From UHGV virus genome UHGV-1455077: a stretch of DNA of 64,000 bases, one strand, 5' to 3'. The notes under the pieces are model-generated. The model was given only the letters and a program-made list of their open reading frames with translations, was not told the origin of the DNA and did not search any database. Shown one piece after another: positions 12,378 to 25,564 of the stretch. Every line of letters begins with the position of its first letter. The first letter of the stretch is position 1. This DNA comes from a virus. Made by a program: the position numbers and the translations under genes.

Positions 12378-12663
12378 ATTTTTAAAAAGATTTGTGATAG
12401 GTGAAAACTATCATAAAAATGGGTAAATGCATACCGTTAGTCACAAGCATTCGGAGTCAGCCGCTTCGTTAGATAAGGGTATCGCCGTTTGAGATTTTAA
12501 GCGTTATTAATAAATCTCACCAGTTAGGTAGACAACTCCTGATTTGACTAATCCAGAACATTAGGTGAAGATGTTTTTAATATATATTGAAAAGAGAAGC
12601 CGAGCGTCACTCGCTCTAAAGGAGTAATTGTAAATCGCTCACCAATTTATTTAAGTTTAAAAA

Positions 12664-13008
12664 ATGATAGAATTAAGAAATTGTAAAAAACACGGTTTAA
12701 CAGAATTTTCATATCATAAATCTGGTAATAGATGGAGATGTAAAAAATGTATGGTTGAAGCTGTTAAATTAAGAAGGAAAAAAATTAAAGAAAAAGCTGT
12801 CGAATATAAAGGTGGAAAATGCGAAATCTGTGGATATAATAAATGTATAGATGCATTAGAATTTCATCATTTAAATCCAAAAGAAAAAGATTTTGGAATT
12901 GGAGAAAAAGGTTATACTCGCAGTTGGATAAAAATTCAAGAAGAACTTGATAAATGTATTATGGTGTGTGCAAATTGCCATAGAGAAATACATAATAAAG
13001 ATACGTAA
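12664..13008 (+). CDS. HNH homing endonuclease
   Basis: CxxC...CxxC zinc ribbon plus HNH core (EFHHLNP...CANCHREIH); located inside the tRNA array. Confidence 0.7.
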   Translation: MIELRNCKKHGLTEFSYHKSGNRWRCKKCMVEAVKLRRKKIKEKAVEYKGGKCEICGYNKCIDALEFHHLNPKEKDFGIGEKGYTRSWIKIQEELDKCIMVCANCHREIHNKDT

Positions 13009-13092: not shown

Positions 13093-13287
13093 ATATTTAA
13101 TAAAAAATTTGTATGAAAGCTAGTGAGTAATACAGATAGTTTAACCCATCTGTACTTCAACAGGGTTCTTGCCATAGAAATAAATGGTCGTTGGATAGAA
13201 AATGTCAATGTTATGAAAAGGAACATTCAAAGTTTTAGTTTTTGAGTGGTAGTTACTAAATTAACAAATAAACTACCATACTTTTAT

Positions 13288-13363
13288 GGTTCGGTGACAG
13301 AACGATTAATGTACCCGTCTGCAAAACGGTGTTTAGTGGGTTTGACTCCCACCCGAATCTCCA
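13288..13363 (+). tRNA. tRNA-Cys(GCA), CCA encoded
   Basis: Acceptor GGTTCGG/CCGAATC; anticodon loop CTGCAAA; T-arm GTGGG-TTTGACT-CCCAC. Confidence 0.6.
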
Positions 13364-13389
13364 TTATTGTTTTTTCAAAATTTTTAAGA

Positions 13390-13520
13390 ATGGTGAGAAA
13401 TTGATTTACATAGACTGGAAATCCGTGTGTAGAAAGTTCGATTCTTTCCCCATCGACCATTTAACGGTGGGTAGCTCATTGGTAGAGCAACGTAAAATGA
13501 TAATCAATTGTTATGTTCCT
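13390..13520 (+). ncRNA. permuted or split tRNA-like unit 1. A tRNA 3' half (T-arm, 3' acceptor strand, ACCA) precedes a 5' half (5' acceptor strand, D-arm), and is itself preceded by the 25-nt motif
   Basis: 3' acceptor CCCATCG at 13449-13455 pairs 7/7 with 5' acceptor CGGTGGG at 13465-13471, 9 nt downstream. D-arm GCTCATTGGTAGAGC follows. A second copy with compensatory acceptor changes is at 23324-23455. Confidence 0.4.
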
Positions 13521-14178
13521 TCTTAATTTTAAAAGTTTTGGTAGTTGGAAGTTAAGCTTTTGGGGCAGGAGCAACTTAACTTCCATCTATTGATGCGTGT
13601 CCTGATTTAATTAATTACCTTCTCGTGGTTCAGGATGTAAGTAAGAATTGCAGTTTTTGACATAAGACAATTCTGAAACTAAAGATTAATATTAAAATGA
13701 TTTAATTGAAGTATAGTAAATTAAATAAGTTGATTAAATAAGTGAGCAAGATAGAATCAACTAAAGGTAATAATATGCAGATTATATGCCGAACTACTAA
13801 CGCTTAAGGTAGATGTAGGAAATAACCTCGGTAGGGCAATTTAATTGTTAATCTCTTAGAAGTCCTAAAAAAATAAACCGTTTTAAAAAACTGCGTTAAA
13901 TTAAAATTTTGAAATTGTTGTTCTCCTTTCATTGTTTTTCATACAACAAGAGTAAAAATATTCTTAGTATCGGGAGAGGTAATATCTTATCTCTCTCTTT
14001 TTATAAAAATGCTGGCAATATTGGTTCGAATCCAATATGTATATCTTATCCTAAAAATTACTATTATAGTATTAGATTTAAATAGTAATGATATGTCAAA
14101 TTTAATAAGAACGTGTTATTGAATTATATACATTAGTTTAATGGTAGAACCCCAGCATTTCTATAAGAAGATTTTTAT

Positions 14179-14245
14179 GGGTGTATAAGTCAACGGTTAG
14201 ACTAACAGCCTTTTAAGCTGTAGATTCGGGTTCGATTCCTTTATA
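14179..14245 (+). pseudogene. degenerate tRNA-Lys(TTT)-like element
   Basis: D-arm AGTCAACGGTTAGACT and anticodon arm ACAGC-CTTTTAA-GCTGT are present, but the T-stem and 3' acceptor are not recoverable. Confidence 0.25.
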
Positions 14246-14736
14246 ATCAATAATGTATAAGAAAAATAACAAATTTCTTTCTTGATAATTAGGTAATGAA
14301 ATTAATGCCTAATTATGACAAGTATTTAACAAAATTTTCTGACTCTAATCAAAGAATTAGTGATTGATAGTTTAAGAATTATCTGTATACGTGAATGACA
14401 CCCTTTATCAACGTTTGCATACATAACTGCATAAATCAAGATGGGTTAGGTGGTCGTTTATCCGTTTCACCTTTCATATGATAAACAAAACGAAAAACGG
14501 ATTGCATTTTTTATAATATTCAAAATGGGTATTAGATAAGATATTGGTAGCTAGATAACCCAATATATGATAAAAACCATTATTGATAAGGTTTAAGATT
14601 TCGACCTTTAACCCAATGGAAATCCAGTTTATCTATTGTACTTGGTTAACAATAGCGTAGAATTGGTCATTCTCAAAAAGGTACGTAAGCCTTTTTATAT
14701 TAAATAAATATCTTATATAATTTATGAGGTATTAAA

Positions 14737-15267: not shown

Positions 15268-15495
15268 ATTTTGGTTGCTATCGGAAATCAAGTGCGAATT
15301 TATGATATGATATATCGGATAAATCATATGGAAAAATGGTAACTTGTGGTACGCCAAACTTAATATGTACCGATAATGTATTAAGTTAAAAATAGCGTTT
15401 TAATATTCAATTTGTCCTTGCCTTTACTTTATAAAGGACTTACAGGCGAGGGGGTGGTCTGGAGTTTAAATAGAGGAAAGTCCCCCAACATTTTT

Positions 15496-17487: not shown

Positions 17488-17891
17488 AAGTTCATAAGGA
17501 GTTACCATTAGTCCTTAAATCACAATCATAATGGCGTTAGAATATCACGAGACGATATTTGGTTTGTAGTTATCCAGAACTATAATGTCACAATACGGAC
17601 ATTTCGTAAATTTAAAAACTGTATTGCGTGGCTGATTACCCATACCATTACGACAAGATGGTTAAAAAATTTAGGTTAAAATGTGATTCCTATAAATCAA
17701 AAAAGACATTCTTTTACTATTTTAGAGTTAGAAAATAGCGTTCATAATTAGAGTGAAATTATCGGTGAATTTGATATTACATCGTGATAAAAAATATTGA
17801 AGGAAGGAAAACCGTGTTGAAACCTTATTTAATCATTGTTATAAATGATTCGTGGTGATTCAATAACTATTACGTGAATATAGTTTTTAAT

Positions 17892-19014: not shown

Positions 19015-19680
19015 ATGTATTACCTAATTTATAAAATAACTAATAATGTAAATAATAAAATCTATATTGGAAAACATCAAACGGAAAATAAAGATGATGA
19101 TTATATGGGTTCTGGAAAAATAATAAAAAGAGCTATTGAAAAATATGGTATAGATAAATTTACAAAAGAAATATTATATGAATGTAATTCATTAGAAGAA
19201 ATGAATGAAAAAGAAGCAGAAATTGTTGATGAAGAATTTGTTGTTCGTTTAGATACATATAATATTAAATTAGGTGGTCAAGGTGGATGGGATTATGTCC
19301 ATAAATATACTGATTGGAATGGATTTAAATATATAAATTCACAAAAGTTAAATAATAAATCGAATCAGTATAAAATATCTGCTGAAAAACTTAAAAATGA
19401 TGAAAAATATGCAAAAGAATTTTCTTTAAAAATTTCTAATGGATTAAAATTATATTACCAATTACATAATAATCCATTTAAAGGGAAAAAACATACAATT
19501 GAATCAAAAATAAAAATTGGTAAAGCAAATGCTATTAAACAAGCTGGTGAAGGAAATTCCAATTATGGAAAATGTTGGATTTATAATGAAGAATTAAAAG
19601 AAAATAAATCTATTAAAAAAGAAAATTTACAATCTTGGTTAGAGAAAGGTTGGAAAAAAGGGAGAAAAATGAAATTTTAA
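19015..19680 (+). CDS. GIY-YIG homing endonuclease (Seg/I-TevI-like)
   Basis: N-terminal YYLIYKITNNVNNKIYIGKH GIY-YIG motif with conserved Arg, Glu and Asn downstream. Confidence 0.75.
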   Translation: MYYLIYKITNNVNNKIYIGKHQTENKDDDYMGSGKIIKRAIEKYGIDKFTKEILYECNSLEEMNEKEAEIVDEEFVVRLDTYNIKLGGQGGWDYVHKYTDWNGFKYINSQKLNNKSNQYKISAEKLKNDEKYAKEFSLKISNGLKLYYQLHNNPFKGKKHTIESKIKIGKANAIKQAGEGNSNYGKCWIYNEELKENKSIKKENLQSWLEKGWKKGRKMKF

Positions 19681-19811: not shown

Positions 19812-19886
19812 GGCAATGTAGTGAAAAGGTTATCACGACTGACTCATATTCAGTAATTTCAAGTTCGATTCTTGACATTGCTACCA
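19812..19886 (+). tRNA. tRNA-Met/fMet/Ile2(CAT), second CAT-anticodon tRNA, CCA encoded
   Basis: Acceptor GGCAATG/CATTGCT; D-arm GTGAAAAGGTTATCAC; anticodon arm ACTGA-CTCATAT-TCAGT; T-arm TCAAG-TTCGATT-CTTGA. Confidence 0.65.
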
Positions 19887-19916
19887 TTCATTATTAACTT
19901 GTGGGATATTAATTTA

Positions 19917-21080
19917 ATGACAAATTACATTATAAATAATAATATCGTCAGAATTTTTGGCGAAGATGAAATCAATATTAAACCAGAAATTCCATTAGGA
20001 ACATATTTGGTTAAAGAAAATGAATTAACAGGTGAATTGTTTTTAGAAAGAACAGCAGATTTTGTAAAGCCTGAAAAAATATATGGAGAATGTGAATTCC
20101 AATCTGAACGAATTATTAAAACATTTAAAGACAGACCTAATAATACTGGAGTTCTTTTAAATGGTGCAAAAGGTTCAGGAAAAACATTTTTAACTAAGTA
20201 TATTTCCTATAAGCTTTTAAAAGATAATTATCCAACAATAATTATTAATGATATATTTAGTCCAACAAAGTTATCTTTATTAATTCAAACAATTAGTGAA
20301 CCTTGTGTCATTATTTTTGATGAATTTGAAAAAATTTATCAATCAAATAAAAAAGATGATTTGCAAAACCCACAGAATGGTTTACTTTCATTGCTTGATG
20401 GTTTATTTCAAACTAAAAAGCTATTCATCTTTACTTGTAATGATGATAGTAATATTTCAGATTTGATGAAGAATAGACCTGGTAGAATTTTTTATAAATT
20501 GGAATTTAAAGGAATTACTGAAAAAACAATTGAAGAATATTGTGAAGAAAAATTAAATAATAAATCATATATTTCTCAAATTTTTAGTATTCGTAAAATG
20601 ATTAAAGATTTTACCTTTGATATTTTACAAGCAATTGTTGAAGAAGTTAATCGTTATAATGAAACTCCTTTAGATGTTGTTAAAATGCTTAATGTAACTC
20701 CAGAATCTTTATATGCAAAATATACTGTATCAATTAAGCCATTAAAGAATCAACAAATTGTAAAATTTGAAAAATCTTTATGGGTAAATCCATTATCTTC
20801 AGAAGAAGAATCAGTATGGATTTATAGAACTAAAACATCAAATGCAGATGATAATAAATATGTTGTTGAAGACGAGGATATTAAAATTTGTGAGCTTAGT
20901 TGTGAAACTGATGATGATGAAGATAATAATGTTAAAACAGTTACTGATTATTTTCCAGTATCATTGCTTACAATGGTATCATCTAACAAAAATACTTATG
21001 TGTATCAGAATGAAGAATATCAGGTTACTTTAACTAAAAAGATTATTGATACTGATGATATGTGGAAGTATGCATTTTAA
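19917..21080 (+). CDS. AAA+ family ATPase. Start moved to MTNYII, downstream of the tRNA
   Basis: Walker A GAKGSGKT, Walker B IIFDEFE, sensor RPGRIF. The listed ORF start at 19872 overlaps the tRNA. Confidence 0.6.
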   Translation: MTNYIINNNIVRIFGEDEINIKPEIPLGTYLVKENELTGELFLERTADFVKPEKIYGECEFQSERIIKTFKDRPNNTGVLLNGAKGSGKTFLTKYISYKLLKDNYPTIIINDIFSPTKLSLLIQTISEPCVIIFDEFEKIYQSNKKDDLQNPQNGLLSLLDGLFQTKKLFIFTCNDDSNISDLMKNRPGRIFYKLEFKGITEKTIEEYCEEKLNNKSYISQIFSIRKMIKDFTFDILQAIVEEVNRYNETPLDVVKMLNVTPESLYAKYTVSIKPLKNQQIVKFEKSLWVNPLSSEEESVWIYRTKTSNADDNKYVVEDEDIKICELSCETDDDEDNNVKTVTDYFPVSLLTMVSSNKNTYVYQNEEYQVTLTKKIIDTDDMWKYAF

Positions 21081-21299: not shown

Positions 21300-21880
21300 A
21301 TTATATTTTAATTTTAAGTAATATATTAAAATCATTTAATAATTGGTTGGCAAGACCAATAGGATGCCTTTTTAAGGCAATGAAAGTAAAATCTTTCTTT
21401 TAATATATGAAGATAAATTATGTCGTGAATGATTTAGTCGGAGAGATAAGCGACTAAGATAAAATAAAAAAATCTCAAATTCCATAGACGTATGGACGGC
21501 ATAATAAATTAAATTGTTGTAACTCAAACAATGGGTAGCCTGCCCATAAGAGTATGCTGGATAATCTGAAAAGATTTGAAGGTAGTTGTGAGTAATACGA
21601 ATCATAAGGTTGAAATAGCCACGGTTGGCTAACCGTGAGTGACGTAAGAACCAGACAAATCGTACAGATGAATAGGTCTGATGGCTGTATCTGGTTGGGA
21701 GTAGTCATTCTCCCCATCCATTAAGCAAAGGAGTAATTAACCTTTGTGGGTGTGACTGAATAATGTGTCGTATGAGGGGCTTGTTGGTAGTCAGGAGTCC
21801 AACCAATAATTTAATTTTAACAGTTTGTGGCAGTCGTTCTGTTTAAAAACTCTGCCTTTTTAAACAAACAGATAGTGATT
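21300..21880 (+). ncRNA. roughly 580-nt ORF-poor region with many stable hairpins; candidate large structured RNA of unassigned family
   Basis: Hairpins TAGTCGgagagataagCGACTA, ATGGGtagcctgCCCAT, CACGGTTggctAACCGTG, GGGAGtagtcattCTCCC, and CTGTTTAAAAA...TTTTTAAACAAACAG. GACTA and TAGTC elements could form a group-I-like P7 helix. Confidence 0.3.
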
Positions 21881-22095
21881 ATTAGATTTACATAGTTCGA
21901 TTCTATATTTTTTCATATAAAAAGGAAAAATGCCAAAAGGGTGGCGTTTACAATCTAATGAATTTTCTTCTGTTTATTTAAAAATTTTCGATAGTGAGTA
22001 TAAGATTTACATAGACCAGACTTTTAATCTGACATTTACAAAATCTTATAGATTGTTCTTCGAATTAATACTTTTTTGTGAATAGTGAGATATTA

Positions 22096-22170
22096 GGTTT
22101 ACATAGCTAAAGTGGTTAAAGCATTTGACTTGAAATCAAAGTATTGTAGGTTCGATTCCTACTGTAATTT
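22096..22170 (+). tRNA. tRNA-like, anticodon TGA (Ser codons) but type I (no long arm); one-nucleotide bulge in the 5' acceptor strand; preceded by the 25-nt motif
   Basis: GGTTTACA-TA-GCT...AGC-A-TTTGA-CTTGAAA-TCAAA-GTATT-GTAGG-TTCGATT-CCTAC-TGTAATT. Confidence 0.35.
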
Positions 22171-22244
22171 TAACTTAATAAAATGTTCTTTCACAAATTT
22201 AATTATTTGACACTTTATTATAAATGTTATATAAATAATAATAT

Positions 22245-22330
22245 GGAAGGTAACTGGCTGGATGAAGACACCGACTTGAAATCGGCTGGGCGTAACTGCT
22301 TTGGGGGTTCGAGTCCCTCACCTTCCGCCA
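22245..22330 (+). tRNA. tRNA-Ser(TGA), type II, CCA encoded
   Basis: Acceptor GGAAGGT/ACCTTCC; anticodon arm CCGA-CTTGAAA-TCGG; long variable arm; T-arm GGGGTTCGAGTCCCTC. Confidence 0.7.
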
Positions 22331-22337
22331 TTTTTAT

Positions 22338-23031
22338 TTGGTATTGTGGGATATGATAAAAGTAAGTAGAAAAGAATACGAAAATAATCCAGAAAAATAT
22401 ATTATATATTGTACAAAATGTAAAAAACCAATAATATTTAAAGATTATAGACATTATTGTGATAGAGTTAATAAAATTAATATTAGACATCATCAACCAT
22501 TTTGTTCAAAAGAATGCTCATATGAATATCATAGATTATTTACAAATAAAGGAATTTGTGATTTTTGTGGTAAAGAGTTTATTAGACAAAATGTTTATGG
22601 GGATAAAAGACAAAAACATACATTTTGTTCACAAAAATGTTCTGCAAAATATTTTAATAGTCATAAAAAATTTGGTTATAGAAAATCAAAAGCTGAAGAA
22701 TATATTGTAAGTCAATTAAAAAAAAGATTATCCGTATTTAAATATTAAAGAAAATGATGTATCAACAATAGGTAAAGAACTTGATATTTATTTACCAGAT
22801 TTAAATTTAGCATTTGAAATTAATGGTATAGTTCATTATAAACCTATATATGGAAAAGAAAAGTTAAATAAAATACAAAATAATGATTTTTTTAAAAAAG
22901 AATTATGTGAAAGTAAAAATATTTTATTGACAATAATTAATATAAGTGATATAAAAGTATTTAAAGAGAATTTAATTATAAATAAATATAATTACATTAA
23001 AGAAATTATAAGTAATACAATGCCACGATAG
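22338..23031 (+). pseudogene. frameshifted Zn-finger/Vsr-like endonuclease gene
   Basis: Frame 0 (22338-22748) encodes a Cys/His-rich domain. The +1 frame from an A-run at 22720 continues as ...GKELDIYLPDLNLAFEINGIVHY... (Vsr/PD-(D/E)xK-like) to 23031, ending inside tRNA-Thr. Confidence 0.4.
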
Positions 23032-23086
23032 CTCAACTGGCAGAGCAACCGATTTGTAATCGGTAGGTTGGGGATTCGACTTCCTC
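23011..23086 (+). tRNA. tRNA-Thr(TGT), CCA encoded
   Basis: Acceptor GCCACGA/TCGTGGC; D-arm GCTCAACTGGCAGAGC; anticodon arm ACCGA-TTTGTAA-TCGGT. Confidence 0.75.
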
Positions 23087-23323
23087 TCGTGGCACCAGAT
23101 TTTAATAAGCTCCCCCGCTAAAGATACTTTGTGTATACAGCGAATATGGGTCAAAGTTTAAACTTTGCATTAAATTATAATAATTGTACAATAAAAAATT
23201 ATGTGAGCATTTTTTAATTTTGTATGGTAATAGTGACTTAAAGAATTACATAGATAACTGATTATTGTCTGCCAAAACAAGAAATTCTTTAAAATTATTC
23301 TTTACCATTTAAACTATTTTAGC

Positions 23324-23455
23324 AATAGTGAGAAAAGGATTTACATAGGTTTGTAACCCGTTGGTAATTGGTTCGAATCCAATCAAGTAATTGAAATATA
23401 TTATTTGTAGCTCATTGGTAGAGCAACGATAAAAAATAATCCTTTATTATGTTCT
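23324..23455 (+). ncRNA. permuted or split tRNA-like unit 2 (paralog of unit 1 at 13390-13520)
   Basis: 25-nt motif, then T-arm ATTGG-TTCGAAT-CCAAT, then 3' acceptor CAAGTAA. Ten nt later 5' acceptor TTATTTG pairs 7/7, followed by TA, D-arm GCTCATTGGTAGAGC and a conserved hairpin ATAAT...TTAT-GTTC. Confidence 0.4.
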
Positions 23456-23489
23456 TTGCTAACAAATATTTGGTGATAGTGATTAATTA

Positions 23490-23563
23490 GGTTTACATAG
23501 CTTAATGGTTAGAGCATTGATTTAACACATCAAACGTTACAGGTTCAACTCCTGTTGTAATTA
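23490..23563 (+). tRNA. tRNA-like, anticodon AAC, bulged 5' acceptor strand; preceded by the 25-nt motif
   Basis: GGTTTACA-TA-GCTT-AATGGTTA-GAGC...TTGAT-TTAACAC-ATCAA...ACAGG-TTCAACT-CCTGT-TGTAATT. Confidence 0.3.
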
Positions 23564-23643
23564 ATACCTAATTTACTATTCTTCACCAGTTCAATTTTGC
23601 ACCCAAGAACATATGTTCTTGGGTATTTTTTTATATAAGTTAT

Positions 23644-23672
23644 TGACAAATCATCTATAAATGAAGTATATT
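23644..23672 (+). promoter_or_regulatory. sigma70-like promoter TTGACA-17-TATATT
   Basis: Upstream of ORF 23699. Confidence 0.45.
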
Positions 23673-23698: not shown

Positions 23699-23998
23699 AT
23701 GAGCTATATTACAAATGAAGATGAACATCAACATATGACATTGTTTGTCTATTTTCCTTGTTCATTAGGTTATGAATGTGCAAAAATTATATTGCAACCT
23801 GGTGAGAAATTTTTTGCTAATGATGATGAAATTATTATGAAAATAGATAATAATAAAAATCCATTAAATAAAGATTTTGTAGGAATTAAAAACGGTGTTT
23901 TATATGCTGTTGGTCAAGAAATATATAAATTAGGAATGTTTAGAGAAAAACCTAAACAAATGACATTTGCCACGACAATGTTTAAATATACAGAATAA
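23699..23998 (+). CDS. hypothetical protein
   Basis: ORF, RBS aagaggtaaaaATG. Confidence 0.4.
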   Translation: MSYITNEDEHQHMTLFVYFPCSLGYECAKIILQPGEKFFANDDEIIMKIDNNKNPLNKDFVGIKNGVLYAVGQEIYKLGMFREKPKQMTFATTMFKYTE

Positions 23999-24277: not shown

Positions 24278-25564
24278 ATGAAAACAAATAAAGCTGAAAA
24301 GAAACCAGCAATTTACACTAATGAAGGTGGTAAAGCATCTCATATTAGTGATTTAGAAGAATTGAAAAGAGCAACAATGTCTTGTTTGCTTTGGGAAGAT
24401 AACTTCTATGAAGATGGTGTATCAATTGCTGACAGAATTACCTCTTTAGTTAAAAATTGTATTGATAAAGGTCATTATGATGATGTAATTGATATTTTGA
24501 AAACTGTAAAATTTGATATGAGATTACGTCATTGTCCATTGTGGATGATTGTTGCAATTTATAAAGCAGGTAAAACTATTGATAAGAATGTTATTGCATC
24601 TATTCTTACAAGACCAGATGATATGGGAGAATTACTTTCTCTTTATCGTAAAGACCAAGCAAATGCACCTATTCCAAATGCTATGAAAAAAGCTATGGCT
24701 ATTGCCATTACTAAATTTGATGAATATCAATTGGCTAAATGGAATCGTGATGCTAATTACAAATTGGTTGATATTGTAAACATTTGTCATCCACAAGTAA
24801 CTGAAGCTATTGATAAGTTGGTTAAAGGAACTTTAGAAACTCCAAAAACTTGGGAAGTTCTTCTTTCTGCCGCTGGTTCTGATAAAGAAAAGAAAAAAGA
24901 AGCTTGGTTGGATTTGATTGAAACTAATAAATTACCTGATATGGCTCTTTTGAAGAATATTCGTGGTATGTTGGATGTAGGTGTTTCTAAAAACACATTG
25001 GTTGACCGTATTAATAATATTAAAAATGGTAGATTATTGCCAATTGATTATATTAGAGCGGCAAATACAAATCCATCATTGGAAAATGAAATTGAAAAGA
25101 AATTCTTAAATTGCTTTGAAAAACCTTCTTTGAATGGTAAGACTGCAATTTTAGTAGATGTGTCAGGTTCTATGGATGGAGAAAGATTAAATTATGCAAA
25201 TGCATTAGCGATGATTGGTCGTGAAATGTGTGAAAATGTTGATATTTACTCATTCTCTAATGAAGTCAAATTCATTCCAAATCGTAGAGGATTTGCTTTA
25301 GCAGAAGCTATTGATAAATCACAATACCATAATGGAACTTATATGTGGGATGCTATTAGTACAGTTGAAAAAGCTCATTACGATAGATTAATTGTTATTA
25401 CTGATGAGCAAACAATGGGTATGCCACACAACGCAGTTATTAAAAATGCATACATTATTAATGTTGCACCATATAATAAAGGTGTTGGTTACAATAATGG
25501 TTACAAACATATTAATGGTTTTTCAGATAAAGTATTTAATTATATTACTGAAATTGAAAAATAA
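24278..25564 (+). CDS. Ro60/Rsr-like protein: TROVE-like N-terminal region plus C-terminal von Willebrand A domain with MIDAS motif
   Basis: N-terminus NEGGKASHISDLEELKRATMSCLLWEDNFYEDG resembles the Ro60 TROVE start (N.dGGy...L.RfL.fGsEggtYY). vWA domain ILVDVSGSMDG with downstream T and D residues. Confidence 0.45.
   Translation: MKTNKAEKKPAIYTNEGGKASHISDLEELKRATMSCLLWEDNFYEDGVSIADRITSLVKNCIDKGHYDDVIDILKTVKFDMRLRHCPLWMIVAIYKAGKTIDKNVIASILTRPDDMGELLSLYRKDQANAPIPNAMKKAMAIAITKFDEYQLAKWNRDANYKLVDIVNICHPQVTEAIDKLVKGTLETPKTWEVLLSAAGSDKEKKKEAWLDLIETNKLPDMALLKNIRGMLDVGVSKNTLVDRINNIKNGRLLPIDYIRAANTNPSLENEIEKKFLNCFEKPSLNGKTAILVDVSGSMDGERLNYANALAMIGREMCENVDIYSFSNEVKFIPNRRGFALAEAIDKSQYHNGTYMWDAISTVEKAHYDRLIVITDEQTMGMPHNAVIKNAYIINVAPYNKGVGYNNGYKHINGFSDKVFNYITEIEK

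What the first reader, a model, noticed from the sequence alone, without database searches (positions are those of the whole stretch)
21872..23500. Conserved approximately 25-nt motif ATAGTGAnnnnnTTAGRTTTACATAG repeated at least seven times, always abutting tRNA-like sequence
Copies lie at 13390, 21872, 21991, 22081, 23229 (degenerate), 23324 and 23475. Each runs directly into something tRNA-like:
- a complete but odd tRNA at 22096 and at 23490, where the motif's 3' end (G)GTTTACA is itself the 5' acceptor strand;
- a permuted unit at 13390 and 23324;
- a stub at 21872 (motif followed by TTCGATTC) and at 21991 (motif followed by a Lys-TTT-like anticodon arm).
The motif could be a phage-specific promoter (its 3' end TACATAG is reminiscent of T7-type CACTATAG), an RNA-processing signal, a homing-endonuclease target, or the conserved 5' end of a family of mobile tRNA-derived mini-elements.
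Basis: seen in the sequence. Interest (0 to 1): 0.6.

Follow-up and report, generated by a model that had tools for sequence, protein, structure and literature searches.

The report
Phage Y-RNA array beside Ro60 gene
The repeated 24-25-nt motif is the conserved 5' half of the stem of seven small Y-RNA-like genes, which are tRNA-derived RNAs expected to bind the phage's own Ro60/Rsr protein encoded just downstream; this is a known kind of system in an unusually rich and modular form.

Summary
It is not a promoter. Each copy is the 5' strand of a covarying two-helix stem whose 3' strand lies 30-110 nt downstream: P0 | U(A/G)GUGA | P1 | UUACAUAG | variable tRNA-derived insert | P1' | ~AUUAUGUUCU | P0'.

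Two inserts are circularly permuted tRNA-like domains that hit Rfam YrlA below its threshold. Two are full cloverleaves without CCA. Three are short, and two of those are bare anticodon-like hairpins.

A TROVE/Ro60 (Rsr) gene starts 689 nt after the last unit. The same architecture lies directly upstream of rsr in phages whose Rsr is only 34-59% identical. There the first half-motif reads GGCGA(A), the published Rsr-site motif GNCGAA, and UUAC matches the published conserved YUAY.

So this is a diverged, multi-copy phage Y RNA family, already known in kind (Chen 2014; Thermus phage phiLo 2025). The less ordinary points:
- Seven paralogues lie in one tRNA array.
- Both known Y/tRNA topologies share one stem module.
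- Hairpin loops are identical to true tRNA anticodon loops.
- The anticodon changes (Lys/Asn/Tyr/Ser/Ile) on a near-identical chassis in related phages.

Rsr binding and function are inferred, not shown.

The parts
13384..13526 (+). Unit A, YrlA-type Y-RNA-like gene. P0 13384-13390/13520-13526; UGGUGA 13391-13396; P1 13399-13406/13502-13509; UUACAUAG 13406-13413. The insert holds an anticodon-like hairpin (loop CUGGAAA), a T arm, a 7-bp acceptor-like hairpin whose loop keeps ACCA plus UUUAA, and a D arm.
   Evidence: Rfam YrlA RF02553 42.5 bits, E 3e-8 locally and 1.3e-6 in a 17.5-kb scan. Scanner and coordinates. Covariation.
21866..21975 (+). Unit U1, atypical insert. P0 21866-21872/21969-21975; UAGUGA 21873-21878; P1 21879-21888/21952-21961; UUACAUAG 21888-21895. 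The insert begins with a T-loop-like AUAG-UUCGAUU-CUAU.
   Evidence: The minimum-free-energy (MFE) fold pairs leader with trailer (z -2.0).
21987..22064 (+). Unit U2, mini Y RNA. The stem module carries a 26-nt insert holding a hairpin CAGA-CUUUUAA-UCUG, whose loop is identical to the tRNA-Lys(UUU) anticodon loop.
22075..22197 (+). Unit U3, cloverleaf type. The Y stem is continuous with the acceptor stem (UACA/UGUA), followed by D arm, anticodon arm UUUGA-CUUGAAA-UCAAA and T arm. No CCA is encoded. ARAGORN calls it tRNA-Ser(tga) at 22096-22171, but it has no long variable arm.
   Evidence: 61.2 bits tRNA; 98.5% of cells paired, 13 pairs with compensatory change.
23224..23308 (+). Unit U4, mini Y RNA. 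The stem module carries a 29-nt insert with hairpin GAUAA-CUGAUUA-UUGUC, one mismatch from the tRNA-Ile(GAU) loop CUGAUAA.
   Evidence: (z -2.5).
23319..23462 (+). Unit U5, YrlA-type. P0 23319-23325/23456-23462; UAGUGA 23326-23331; P1 23334-23341/23438-23445; UUACAUAG 23341-23348. Its anticodon-like loop UUUGUAA is identical to that of the neighbouring tRNA-Thr(UGU). It also has a T arm, a 7-bp acceptor-like hairpin and a D arm.
   Evidence: Rfam YrlA 35.4 bits, E 3.5e-6 locally and 1.5e-4 in 17.5 kb. Covariation.
23470..23589 (+). Unit U6, cloverleaf type. The Y stem sits on the acceptor stem. The anticodon arm is UUGAU-UUAACAC-AUCAA, one mismatch from the tRNA-Val(UAC) loop. No CCA is encoded.
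   Evidence: (59.3 bits).
24278..25564 (+). Ro60/Rsr orthologue: a 428-aa protein with a TROVE ring and a vWA domain carrying the MIDAS-like motif DVSGS. It is the presumed protein partner of the seven RNAs.
   Evidence: Pfam TROVE PF05731, E 2.5e-17. Residues 14-427 align to Thermus phage phiLo phiRo60, PDB 9KOP/9L5Y, E 1.9e-13. Translation.
23601..23632 (+). Intrinsic terminator closing the Y-RNA cluster: a 10-bp stem followed by a T run.
23643..23672 (+). Sigma-70-like promoter TTGACA-N18-TATATT (11 of 12 matches), upstream of the small ORF 23699-23998 and of rsr.
   Evidence: This is a consensus match only.

Best explanation
The motif is the 5' strand of the protein-binding stem of a family of seven phage Y-RNA-like RNAs.

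**Architecture.** Each gene reads, 5' to 3':
1. Outer helix P0, 5-8 bp.
2. One bulged U, then 2 bp.
3. The conserved purine-rich element (U)AGUGA, a diverged form of the Y-RNA motif GNCGAA.
4. Inner helix P1, 8-10 bp.
5. The junction element UUAC-AUAG, where UUAC matches the conserved YUAY of YrlA.
6. A tRNA-derived module.
7. The return strands P1', (A/U)U(G/A)UUCU and P0'.

**How it most likely works (inferred).**
- The units are probably transcribed together with the neighbouring tRNAs as one precursor and trimmed back to the stem.
- The phage Ro60/Rsr ring, encoded 0.7 kb downstream, binds the conserved internal loop and bulge of the stem.
- The exposed tRNA-like or anticodon-like module recruits, or is recognised by, tRNA-binding factors. 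By analogy with Ro60-Y RNA-PNPase complexes, one such factor would be the host exoribonuclease PNPase.

**Shown here:** the repeat, the structure with covariation, the tRNA-like modules, the adjacent TROVE gene, and conservation of the arrangement across phages.

**Inferred:** transcription and processing, Rsr binding, and the downstream function.
For: **Structure**
- Every copy has a complementary partner downstream. Cognate leader/trailer pairs give P0 of 5-7 bp and P1 of 8-10 bp. Swapped pairs average 2.1 and 5.4 bp, and 0 of 5039 permutations reach the observed sum.
- In 22 distinct units from four phages, 93.9% of cells are paired against 60.3% when shuffled and 39-54% when slid. There are 129 double-change cells against 40, and 16 of 17 pairs show compensatory change. 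AG/GG of the motif covaries perfectly with CU/CC of the trailer.
- Unfitted MAFFT alignments agree: 98.5% paired for the cloverleaf type and 95.9% for the YrlA type.

**Family identity**
- Both permuted units match the full Rfam YrlA model, at E 1.3e-6 and 1.5e-4 in a 17.5-kb two-strand scan.
- A TROVE/Ro60 gene lies on the same strand 689 nt after the last unit.

**Conservation with rsr**
- Homologous units lie directly upstream of rsr in phages with 86%, 59% and 34-40% identical Rsr.
- Five unannotated units lie upstream of rsr in Xanthomonas phage Tabio.
- In the 59% relative the first element reads (A/C)GGCGA(A/G), that is GNCGAA.

**Precedent in the literature**
- YrlA RNAs lie within 4 kb of rsr on the same strand, carry GNCGAAN0-1G and YUAY, and mimic tRNA. 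D. radiodurans Y RNAs are made in one precursor with a tRNA (PMC4201824).
- Thermus phage phiLo Ro60 binds two upstream Y-like RNAs and host PNPase in vitro (PMC12135203).

**Gene layout**
- Units are 7-11 nt apart and the cluster ends in one terminator.
Against: - No expression, end-mapping or binding data exist for this phage.
- Both Rfam YrlA hits are well below the gathering score (42.5 and 35.4 against 69 bits), and part of their score comes from generic T and D arms.
- The literal GNCGAA motif is absent from the window (UAGUGA/UGGUGA instead). The equivalence rests on position and on intermediate forms in relatives.
- The P1 register in alignment A4 was fitted by a helix search.
- Five of the seven units lack the YrlA T-AS-D domain.
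- Unit A lies 10.8 kb from rsr, outside the 4-kb rule used in the literature.
Confidence: 0.85

Rival explanations
1. The stem is only a leader/trailer processing scaffold for unusual but functional tRNAs. On this reading the embedded cloverleaves U3 and U6 are released by RNase P and 3' nucleases and receive CCA. The permuted units are cut in the acceptor loop, giving two-piece tRNAs. The Ro60 gene next door is incidental.
For: - U3 and U6 score as good tRNAs (61.2 and 59.3 bits).
- Unit A keeps ACCA at the right place after a 7-bp acceptor-like stem.
- M. smegmatis YrlA is cut by RNase P and receives CCA in vivo (PMC4201824).
- Changing the anticodon on a constant chassis is also what tRNA remoulding would look like.
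Against: - Three units carry no tRNA body at all, yet keep the full conserved stem.
- The unpaired stem elements are conserved in phages whose Rsr is only 34-59% identical, always next to rsr.
- Nearly all true tRNAs here encode CCA, but U3 and U6 do not.
- Their leader is base-paired to the trailer.
- U3 has a Ser anticodon without the long variable arm.
Confidence: 0.07
2. The motif is a phage-specific promoter (T7-like or other), one per small gene.
For: - It is a strongly conserved 24-nt element immediately 5' of small RNA genes.
- ATAGTGAG is the reverse complement of T7 CTCACTAT.
Against: - The middle of the motif is variable and covaries with a downstream partner.
- Only 7-11 nt separate one unit's end from the next motif.
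- The conserved elements correspond to known RNA-level Y-RNA motifs.
- The T7 resemblance is on the opposite strand to all the genes.
- None of the large ORFs tested carries an RNA polymerase domain. The window covers only part of a genome of more than 200 kb.
Confidence: 0.02
3. The units are miniature inverted-repeat mobile elements or homing-endonuclease targets that have spread through the tRNA array.
For: - P0 and P1 are inverted repeats at the DNA level.
- HNH and GIY-YIG endonuclease ORFs lie in the array.
Against: - The inverted repeats differ between copies while the unpaired elements are conserved, the opposite of transposase-recognised ends.
- All copies are on one strand.
- G-U pairs occur, and they would be A-C on the other strand.
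- Orthologous units hold the same order upstream of rsr in related phages.
- No copy lies elsewhere in 64 kb.
Confidence: 0.02

Closest known systems
YrlA Y-RNA-like RNAs of bacteria and mycobacteriophages (Rfam RF02553; Chen et al. 2014, PMC4201824; structure in Wang et al. 2018, bioRxiv 10.1101/312249)
   Same: - Encoded upstream of rsr on the same strand.
- The 5' and 3' ends form a stem with a conserved purine-rich 5' element.
- YUAY lies at the junction.
- The domain order is T arm, closed acceptor-like hairpin, D arm, with tRNA-like T and D loops (units A and U5).
- More than one Y RNA per genome.
   Different: - The motif reads UAGUGA/UGGUGA, not GNCGAA.
- Scores are far below the Rfam gathering threshold.
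- There are seven paralogues.
- A hairpin with a true 7-nt anticodon loop is present, whereas Salmonella YrlA 'lacks the anticodon loop'.
- Unit A keeps ACCA inside the acceptor loop.
- Five units replace the YrlA domain with other modules.
Thermus phage phiLo phiRo60 with Yrl1/Yrl2 (PMC12135203; PDB 9KOP, 9L5Y)
   Same: - A phage-encoded Ro60 is the closest solved relative of the window protein (E 1.9e-13).
- Y-like RNAs lie upstream of its gene.
- They have a stem / internal loop / stem layout.
   Different: - That phage has two RNAs found through a CGAA motif.
- No tRNA array, cloverleaf or anticodon-type modules are described there.
- Binding was shown there but not here.
Deinococcus radiodurans Yrn1/Yrn2 (PMC4201824)
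   Same: - Yrn1 has the D - anticodon-like arm - T order with the Y stem in the acceptor position, as in U3 and U6.
- Yrn2 is a plain hairpin Y RNA, like the mini units.
- The RNAs are made in one precursor with a tRNA.
   Different: - Yrn1 has a 6-nt 'anticodon loop' and an incomplete D arm.
- Chen et al. argued that Yrn1 and YrlA arose independently, whereas here both topologies share one stem module in one array.
Metazoan Y RNAs
   Same: A terminal stem with a conserved bulged helix bound by Ro60, a variable distal module, and 2-4 paralogues per genome.
   Different: No tRNA-like module, a different conserved sequence (GGUCCGA), and transcription by Pol III.
Circularly permuted tRNA genes (Cyanidioschyzon merolae), recalled from memory
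   Same: The 3' half of the tRNA precedes the 5' half, and flanking sequences pair with each other.
   Different: - Those are matured through a bulge-helix-bulge cut and a circular intermediate into real tRNAs.
- Here the break is at the D/anticodon junction, no such motif is evident, and the flanks carry Ro60-type elements.

Membership tests
Y RNA / YrlA (Chen 2014; Rfam RF02553) | Encoded near (within 4 kb of) and on the same strand as a Ro60/Rsr (TROVE) gene | tested here: met
   Six units lie 0.7-2.4 kb upstream of the TROVE ORF 24278-25564 on the same strand. Unit A is 10.8 kb upstream. The same adjacency holds in L121-L130 and in phage Tabio.
Y RNA / YrlA (Chen 2014; Rfam RF02553) | Long stem formed by the 5' and 3' ends, interrupted by a conserved internal loop or bulge | tested here: met
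   P0 and P1 covary: 93.9% paired, 16 of 17 pairs with compensatory change, 0 of 500 shuffles as high. Permutation test. MFE folds.
Y RNA / YrlA (Chen 2014; Rfam RF02553) | Conserved 5' motif GNCGAAN0-1G (putative Rsr contact) | tested here: inconclusive
   The window has UAGUGA/UGGUGA at the equivalent position. The relative with 59% identical Rsr (L124) has (A/C)GGCGA(A/G), L125 has UGGCGAAAG, and GC-rich relatives have GGUGAAG. This is a graded series, not a literal match.
Y RNA / YrlA (Chen 2014; Rfam RF02553) | tRNA-like domain in the order T arm, closed acceptor-like stem, D arm, with YUAY before it | tested here: met
   Met for units A and U5 only. UUAC is present in all seven units. 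The other five units have different inserts.
Y RNA / YrlA (Chen 2014; Rfam RF02553) | Score at or above the Rfam gathering threshold (69 bits) | tested here: not met
   42.5 and 35.4 bits. No phage locus tested reaches the threshold, and Tabio's best unit scores 52.1 bits.
Y RNA / YrlA (Chen 2014; Rfam RF02553) | Bound and stabilised by Ro60/Rsr | not testable with these tools
   This needs co-immunoprecipitation or gel-shift assays.
Canonical elongator tRNA (for U3 and U6) | Cloverleaf with conserved D and T loops | tested here: met
   Rfam tRNA 61.2 and 59.3 bits against a threshold of 29. All arms covary.
Canonical elongator tRNA (for U3 and U6) | Features of this phage's working tRNAs: encoded CCA, free leader and trailer, and identity elements such as the long variable arm for Ser | tested here: not met
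   Nearly all other tRNAs in the window end in CCA, but U3 and U6 do not. Their flanks form a 9-10-bp helix plus P0. U3 has anticodon UGA but a 5-nt variable loop, whereas the true tRNA-Ser(UGA) at 22245-22331 has the long arm.
Single-subunit-RNAP (T7-type) promoter | Invariant recognition bases from -17 to -5 on the transcribed strand, and a cognate RNAP gene | tested here: not met
   The middle 9-10 nt vary between copies and covary with the trailer. No RNA polymerase domain was found in the large ORFs scanned. The rest of the genome is not in the window.

The most novel reading that the evidence does not exclude
The array is a set of interchangeable 'anticodon displays'. One Ro60-binding stem presents anticodon stem-loops either alone, on a permuted tRNA body, or on a full CCA-less cloverleaf.

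The supporting observations are:
- The loops are identical to those of real tRNAs while the stems have diverged.
- Near-identical phages differ mainly in the loop, which reads Lys UUU, Asn GUU or Tyr GUA.
- Further relatives carry Ser UGA, Ile UAU and Ile GAU.

From my own knowledge, Lys, Asn and Tyr are among the tRNAs cut by known anticodon nucleases: PrrC, the PARIS effector AriB, colicin E5 and the retron-associated PtuAB. The phage may therefore use Ro60-protected tRNA mimics as decoys or sensors for host tRNA-targeting defences or tRNA-modifying enzymes, with the anticodon evolving in an arms race.

A side reading is that unit A is a near-intact intermediate supporting the proposed origin of YrlA from a dimeric tRNA transcript. 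It retains an anticodon arm, T arm, acceptor 3' strand, ACCA, a 5-nt spacer, the acceptor 5' strand and a D arm.
Probability: 0.2. Interest if true: 0.8.

Novelty: new variant of a known kind. Interest (0 to 1): 0.5.

Why it matters
Y RNAs and Ro60 occur from bacteria to humans, yet what the bacterial tRNA-like module does remains unknown.

This phage lineage has relatives in human gut metagenome assemblies. It offers a natural series in which one conserved Ro60-type stem carries seven different tRNA-derived modules, and in which the anticodon loop is the part that changes between near-identical genomes. That points the search for the unknown effector at proteins that read anticodon loops, and it makes a link to tRNA-targeting phage defence directly testable.

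Practically, the curated Rfam threshold detected none of these RNAs in the phage loci scanned, including Xanthomonas phage Tabio. tRNA finders also report parts of them as ordinary tRNAs (Ser, Val, Lys, Asn, Pro), which inflates phage tRNA counts.

Tried and rejected
It gave 0 matches with up to 3 mismatches, so I replaced it with the correct spacing.
- **Exact-motif scan of viral contigs**. 118 of 119 loci were single chance hits. Only one contig, the same phage lineage, was real. Relatives had to be reached through the TROVE protein instead.
- **Looser structural scanners**. These gave about one hit per 20 kb in unrelated viral DNA, so they were used only to locate units, not as evidence.
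- **Self-cleaving ribozyme** (hammerhead, hairpin). Considered from the TACATA|G junction, but the core sequences do not fit and Rfam gave no ribozyme hit even at E of 10 or less.
- **Permuted-tRNA splicing.** My first reading was that joining ...ACG|G... rebuilds a 5-bp anticodon stem. The YrlA topology superseded this. In GC-rich relatives the anticodon-like hairpin is self-contained.
- **Pairing of ACAUAG with the trailer UUAUGU.** The Rfam alignment of unit A suggests this pairing. It holds only in units A and U5 and would cross P1, so it was not adopted.
- **T7-like promoter on the minus strand.** Rejected, as set out under the rival explanations.
- **Possible eighth copy at 17765-17784.** It has no trailer and its fold has z = +0.7.
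- **Rfam at gathering threshold on 11 related loci.** No YrlA hits.
- **Two review papers on bacterial Y RNAs.** Neither was held in the library, and no supplement of Chen 2014 was held.
- **Insert-tolerant covariance model.** I did not build one, because the variable 17-89-nt insert sits inside the conserved loop.
Full report
**1. The observation**

The window is AT-rich (26.6% GC). Between about 11.9 and 27.8 kb it carries an array of more than 20 tRNA genes, all on the + strand.

ATAGTGA-N8-12-TTACATAG finds six exact + strand copies (21872, 21991, 22082, 23230, 23325, 23476) against 0.00 expected. A seventh copy with one change (ATGGTGA...) lies at 13390. A shorter core, GTGA-N8-13-TACATMG, gives eight hits against 0.17 expected. 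The extra hit at 17765 has no partner strand and no stable fold. The repeat is therefore real, strand-specific and confined to the tRNA array.

**2. Anatomy**

- The variable 9-10 nt in the middle of each motif are complementary to a stretch 30-110 nt downstream (helix P1, 8-10 bp).
- The 5-8 nt just before the motif pair with the bases just after a conserved trailer (A/U)U(G/A)UUC(U/C) (helix P0).
- The AG or GG of UAGUGA/UGGUGA pairs with the CU or CC of the trailer, leaving one bulged U.

Minimum-free-energy folds recover the leader/trailer pairing in all seven units. A motif-anchored scanner recovers exactly these seven, plus one weak false hit, in both strands of the 64 kb.

Each unit thus reads: P0 | U(A/G)GUGA | P1 | UUACAUAG | insert | P1' | trailer | P0'. 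The units span 13384-13526, 21866-21975, 21987-22064, 22075-22197, 23224-23308, 23319-23462 and 23470-23589. Neighbouring units are only 7-11 nt apart.

**3. Statistical support for the structure**

| Test | Result |
|---|---|
| Cognate against swapped leader/trailer, 7 window units | P0 5-7 bp and P1 8-10 bp, against means of 2.1 and 5.4; 0 of 5039 permutations reach the observed sum |
| 22 distinct units from the window and three related phages | 93.9% of cells paired, against 60.3% shuffled and 39-54% slid |
| Same alignment, double changes | 129 cells against 40; 16 of 17 pairs with compensatory change |
| Same alignment, 2-bp element | 17 A-U and 5 G-C, no exception |
| Natural MAFFT alignment, cloverleaf units | 98.5% paired, 13 compensatory pairs |
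| Natural MAFFT alignment, permuted units | 95.9% paired, 15 compensatory pairs |

In the 22-unit alignment the P0 register is fixed by the motif, whereas the P1 register was fitted by a helix search. A few G-U pairs occur in these alignments; they would be A-C on the other strand. All units share the orientation of the tRNAs. Both points indicate an RNA read from the + strand.

**4. What the inserts are**

- **Units A and U5** contain a hairpin with a 7-nt loop, 4-5 nt, a T arm, a 7-bp hairpin in the acceptor position, and a D arm. This is a tRNA circularly permuted at the D/anticodon junction. Both match the full length of Rfam YrlA ('Y RNA-like', RF02553). Scores are 42.5 and 35.4 bits, below the gathering score of 69. 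They remain significant at E 1.3e-6 and 1.5e-4 in a 17.5-kb two-strand search of all families.
- **Units U3 and U6** are complete cloverleaves (61.2 and 59.3 bits as tRNA). Part of the motif (UACA) forms their acceptor 5' strand, and the Y stem continues from the acceptor stem. They encode no CCA, although nearly every other tRNA here does.
- **Units U2 and U4** carry only a short hairpin with a 7-nt loop.
- **Unit U1** carries a T-loop-like stub and little else.

**5. The neighbour**

ORF 24278-25564 (+ strand, 428 aa) has a TROVE domain (E 2.5e-17). It aligns over residues 14-427 with the Ro60 homologue of Thermus phage phiLo (PDB 9KOP/9L5Y, E 1.9e-13), and it has the DVSGS metal-site motif of the vWA domain.

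It starts 689 nt after unit U6. In between lie a strong intrinsic terminator (23601-23624) and a near-consensus sigma-70-type promoter (23643-23672).

**6. Conservation with rsr in other phages**

Searching viral contigs with the protein gave 12 loci. Where units were found, they lie just upstream of rsr on its strand.
- **86% identical Rsr (L121-L123):** six units each, with the same motifs but different helix sequences.
- **59% identity (L124):** five or six units in which UUUACAUAG is kept but the first element reads (A/C)GGCGA(A/G).
- **34-40% identity (L125-L130):** two to four units with (G)UGG(U/C)G(A/U)AG ... P1 ... (G)UUAC(U/A)UC(G) ... (C)UUGUUCC.
- **L131:** no unit could be made out in the stretch upstream of rsr.
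- **Xanthomonas phage Tabio:** one of 93 sequenced phages with a homologue. It has five such units in an unannotated 675-nt gap upstream of rsr.

**7. Comparison with the literature**

Chen et al. 2014 (PMC4201824) defined YrlA RNAs by these features:
- location within 4 kb of rsr on the same strand;
- a 5' motif GNCGAAN0-1G, proposed as the Rsr contact;
- a conserved YUAY at the start of the next element;
- a T arm / acceptor-like stem / D arm domain.

They found such RNAs in 254 bacteria and 22 phages. They also showed co-transcription of D. radiodurans Y RNAs with a tRNA, and RNase P cleavage plus CCA addition for the M. smegmatis RNA, which has a 7-bp acceptor-like stem.

ATAGTGA is a diverged GNCGAA, a correspondence supported by the graded series GGCGAA, GGUGAA, AGUGA across relatives. 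The middle is the P1 5' strand. TTAC is the YUAY. ATAG begins the tRNA-derived module: it forms the anticodon-stem, acceptor-stem or T-stem 5' strand, depending on the unit.

A 2025 study showed that a phage Ro60 binds two upstream Y-like RNAs and assembles with host PNPase in vitro (PMC12135203).

None of the phage loci tested reaches the Rfam gathering score. Tabio's best unit scores 52.1 bits.

**8. Most likely mechanism**

The seven RNAs are probably made from precursor transcripts shared with the tRNAs and trimmed to the P0 stem. The phage Rsr ring would bind the conserved bulge and internal loop, and the distal tRNA-derived module would then be presented to other factors.

The structure, homology and gene neighbourhood are shown here. 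Transcription, binding and function are inferred from the characterised systems. I put 0.85 on 'Y-RNA-like RNAs whose conserved stem is the Rsr-binding module'.

**9. What is unusual**

- **Number.** There are seven paralogues, whereas characterised bacteria have two and phiLo has two.
- **Two topologies on one stem.** The YrlA topology (T - acceptor - D) and the Yrn1-like topology (D - anticodon - T, stem on the acceptor end) occur side by side on the same stem module. Chen et al. took the two topologies to be independent inventions.
- **Anticodon-like loops.** Salmonella YrlA 'lacks the anticodon loop' (bioRxiv 10.1101/312249), yet six of the seven units here carry a hairpin with a 7-nt loop.
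  - Three loops are identical to those of true tRNAs in the same window: Lys CUUUUAA, Ser CUUGAAA and Thr UUUGUAA.
  - Two differ by one base: Ile and Val.
  - The stems are unrelated.
  - In L124 a 13-nt stretch of the hairpin equals the neighbouring tRNA-Lys anticodon arm.
  - In GC-rich relatives the equivalent loops read Asn CUGUUAA, Cys CUGCAAA and Pro UUUGGGA.
- **Changing anticodons.**
  - The first cloverleaf unit keeps its chassis across relatives while the anticodon changes.
  - Six distinct sequences share the same P0, nearly the same P1, and the same anticodon stem and T arm. They carry Lys UUU, Asn GUU or Tyr GUA.
  - 3 of 7 loop columns vary, against 8 of 110 elsewhere (Fisher p = 0.018).
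  - More distant relatives carry Ser UGA, Ile UAU and Ile GAU.
- **Unit A.** It retains ACCA and a 5-nt spacer inside its acceptor-like hairpin (CCCAUCG-ACCA-UUUAA-CGGUGGG). This is what the proposed origin of YrlA from a dimeric tRNA transcript predicts.

These points suggest that the anticodon loop is a functional, fast-evolving part of the RNAs. They do not prove it. A decoy or sensor role in conflicts over tRNA cleavage is my speculation (probability about 0.2).

**10. Verdict**

The motif is real and explained. It belongs to a known kind of system, Ro60/Rsr with Y-RNA-like tRNA mimics. Here it appears as a diverged, multi-copy and modular variant that current annotation tools either miss or mislabel as tRNAs.

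Relatives occur in 200-280-kb viral contigs and in human gut metagenome assemblies.

Noticed in passing
window 22245-22331: A tRNA-Ser(UGA) with a long variable arm and an encoded CCA sits here. ARAGORN and the Rfam tRNA model both miss it, and it appears only as a sub-threshold tRNA-Sec hit (30.7 bits). It lies just after a TTGACA-type promoter-like site near 22208.
   Followed up: partly
window 17765-17784: A partial copy of the motif (GTGAATTTGATATTACATCG) lies upstream of tRNA-Ile. It has no matching trailer and no stable fold (z +0.7), so it may be a decayed unit or chance.
   Followed up: yes
window 12400-12640, 13100-13290, 13540-13660, 14380-14700, 15280-15490, 21606-21860: GC-richer blocks that look structured lie between the tRNA genes and match no Rfam family at threshold. 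The last one gives a weak manA-RNA hit (21726-21813, 23.5 bits against 55.2). They may be further unannotated phage ncRNAs.
   Followed up: no
window 13900-14250: Odd tRNA-like debris lies here: an isolated T-arm-like GGTTCGAATCC near 14024, a D-arm-like piece near 14130, and a low-scoring tRNA-Lys(UUU) at 14178-14250 (44.5 bits) that, unlike its neighbours, encodes no CCA.
   Followed up: no
window 12664-13008, 19015-19680, 22338-23010: Homing-endonuclease-type ORFs sit inside the tRNA array: an HNH ORF, a GIY-YIG/NUMOD3 ORF, and a zinc-finger ORF that appears frameshifted near 22745. The DNA just downstream of that frameshift (about 22771-22829) resembles a stretch annotated 'homing endonuclease' in Klebsiella phage RaK2.
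   Followed up: partly
window 19872-21080: A 402-aa AAA/STAND-type NTPase ORF with a TTG start is embedded in the tRNA array (Pfam AAA, nSTAND3, NACHT).
   Followed up: no
L133 (Xanthomonas phage Tabio LR743528) 1330-1960: Five tandem Y-RNA-like units fill an unannotated 675-nt gap upstream of a 'hypothetical protein' that is a Ro60 homologue. The same protein is present, annotated as hypothetical, in about ten other 43-kb Xanthomonas/Xylella phages.
   Followed up: partly
L129 2058-2134; L121 4851-4924 and 5778-5850; window 22096-22171 and 23491-23563: tRNA finders report parts of Y-RNA-like units as ordinary tRNAs (Pro, Lys, Ser, Val). Phage tRNA inventories in Ro60-encoding phages are therefore likely inflated.
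   Followed up: partly
L132 (Ralstonia phage RsoM2USA) 2640-3000: The closest cultured-phage Rsr (41% identity) has a tRNA directly upstream (2713-2784), and I saw no obvious Y-like unit in the 300-nt gap. I inspected this by eye only.
   Followed up: no
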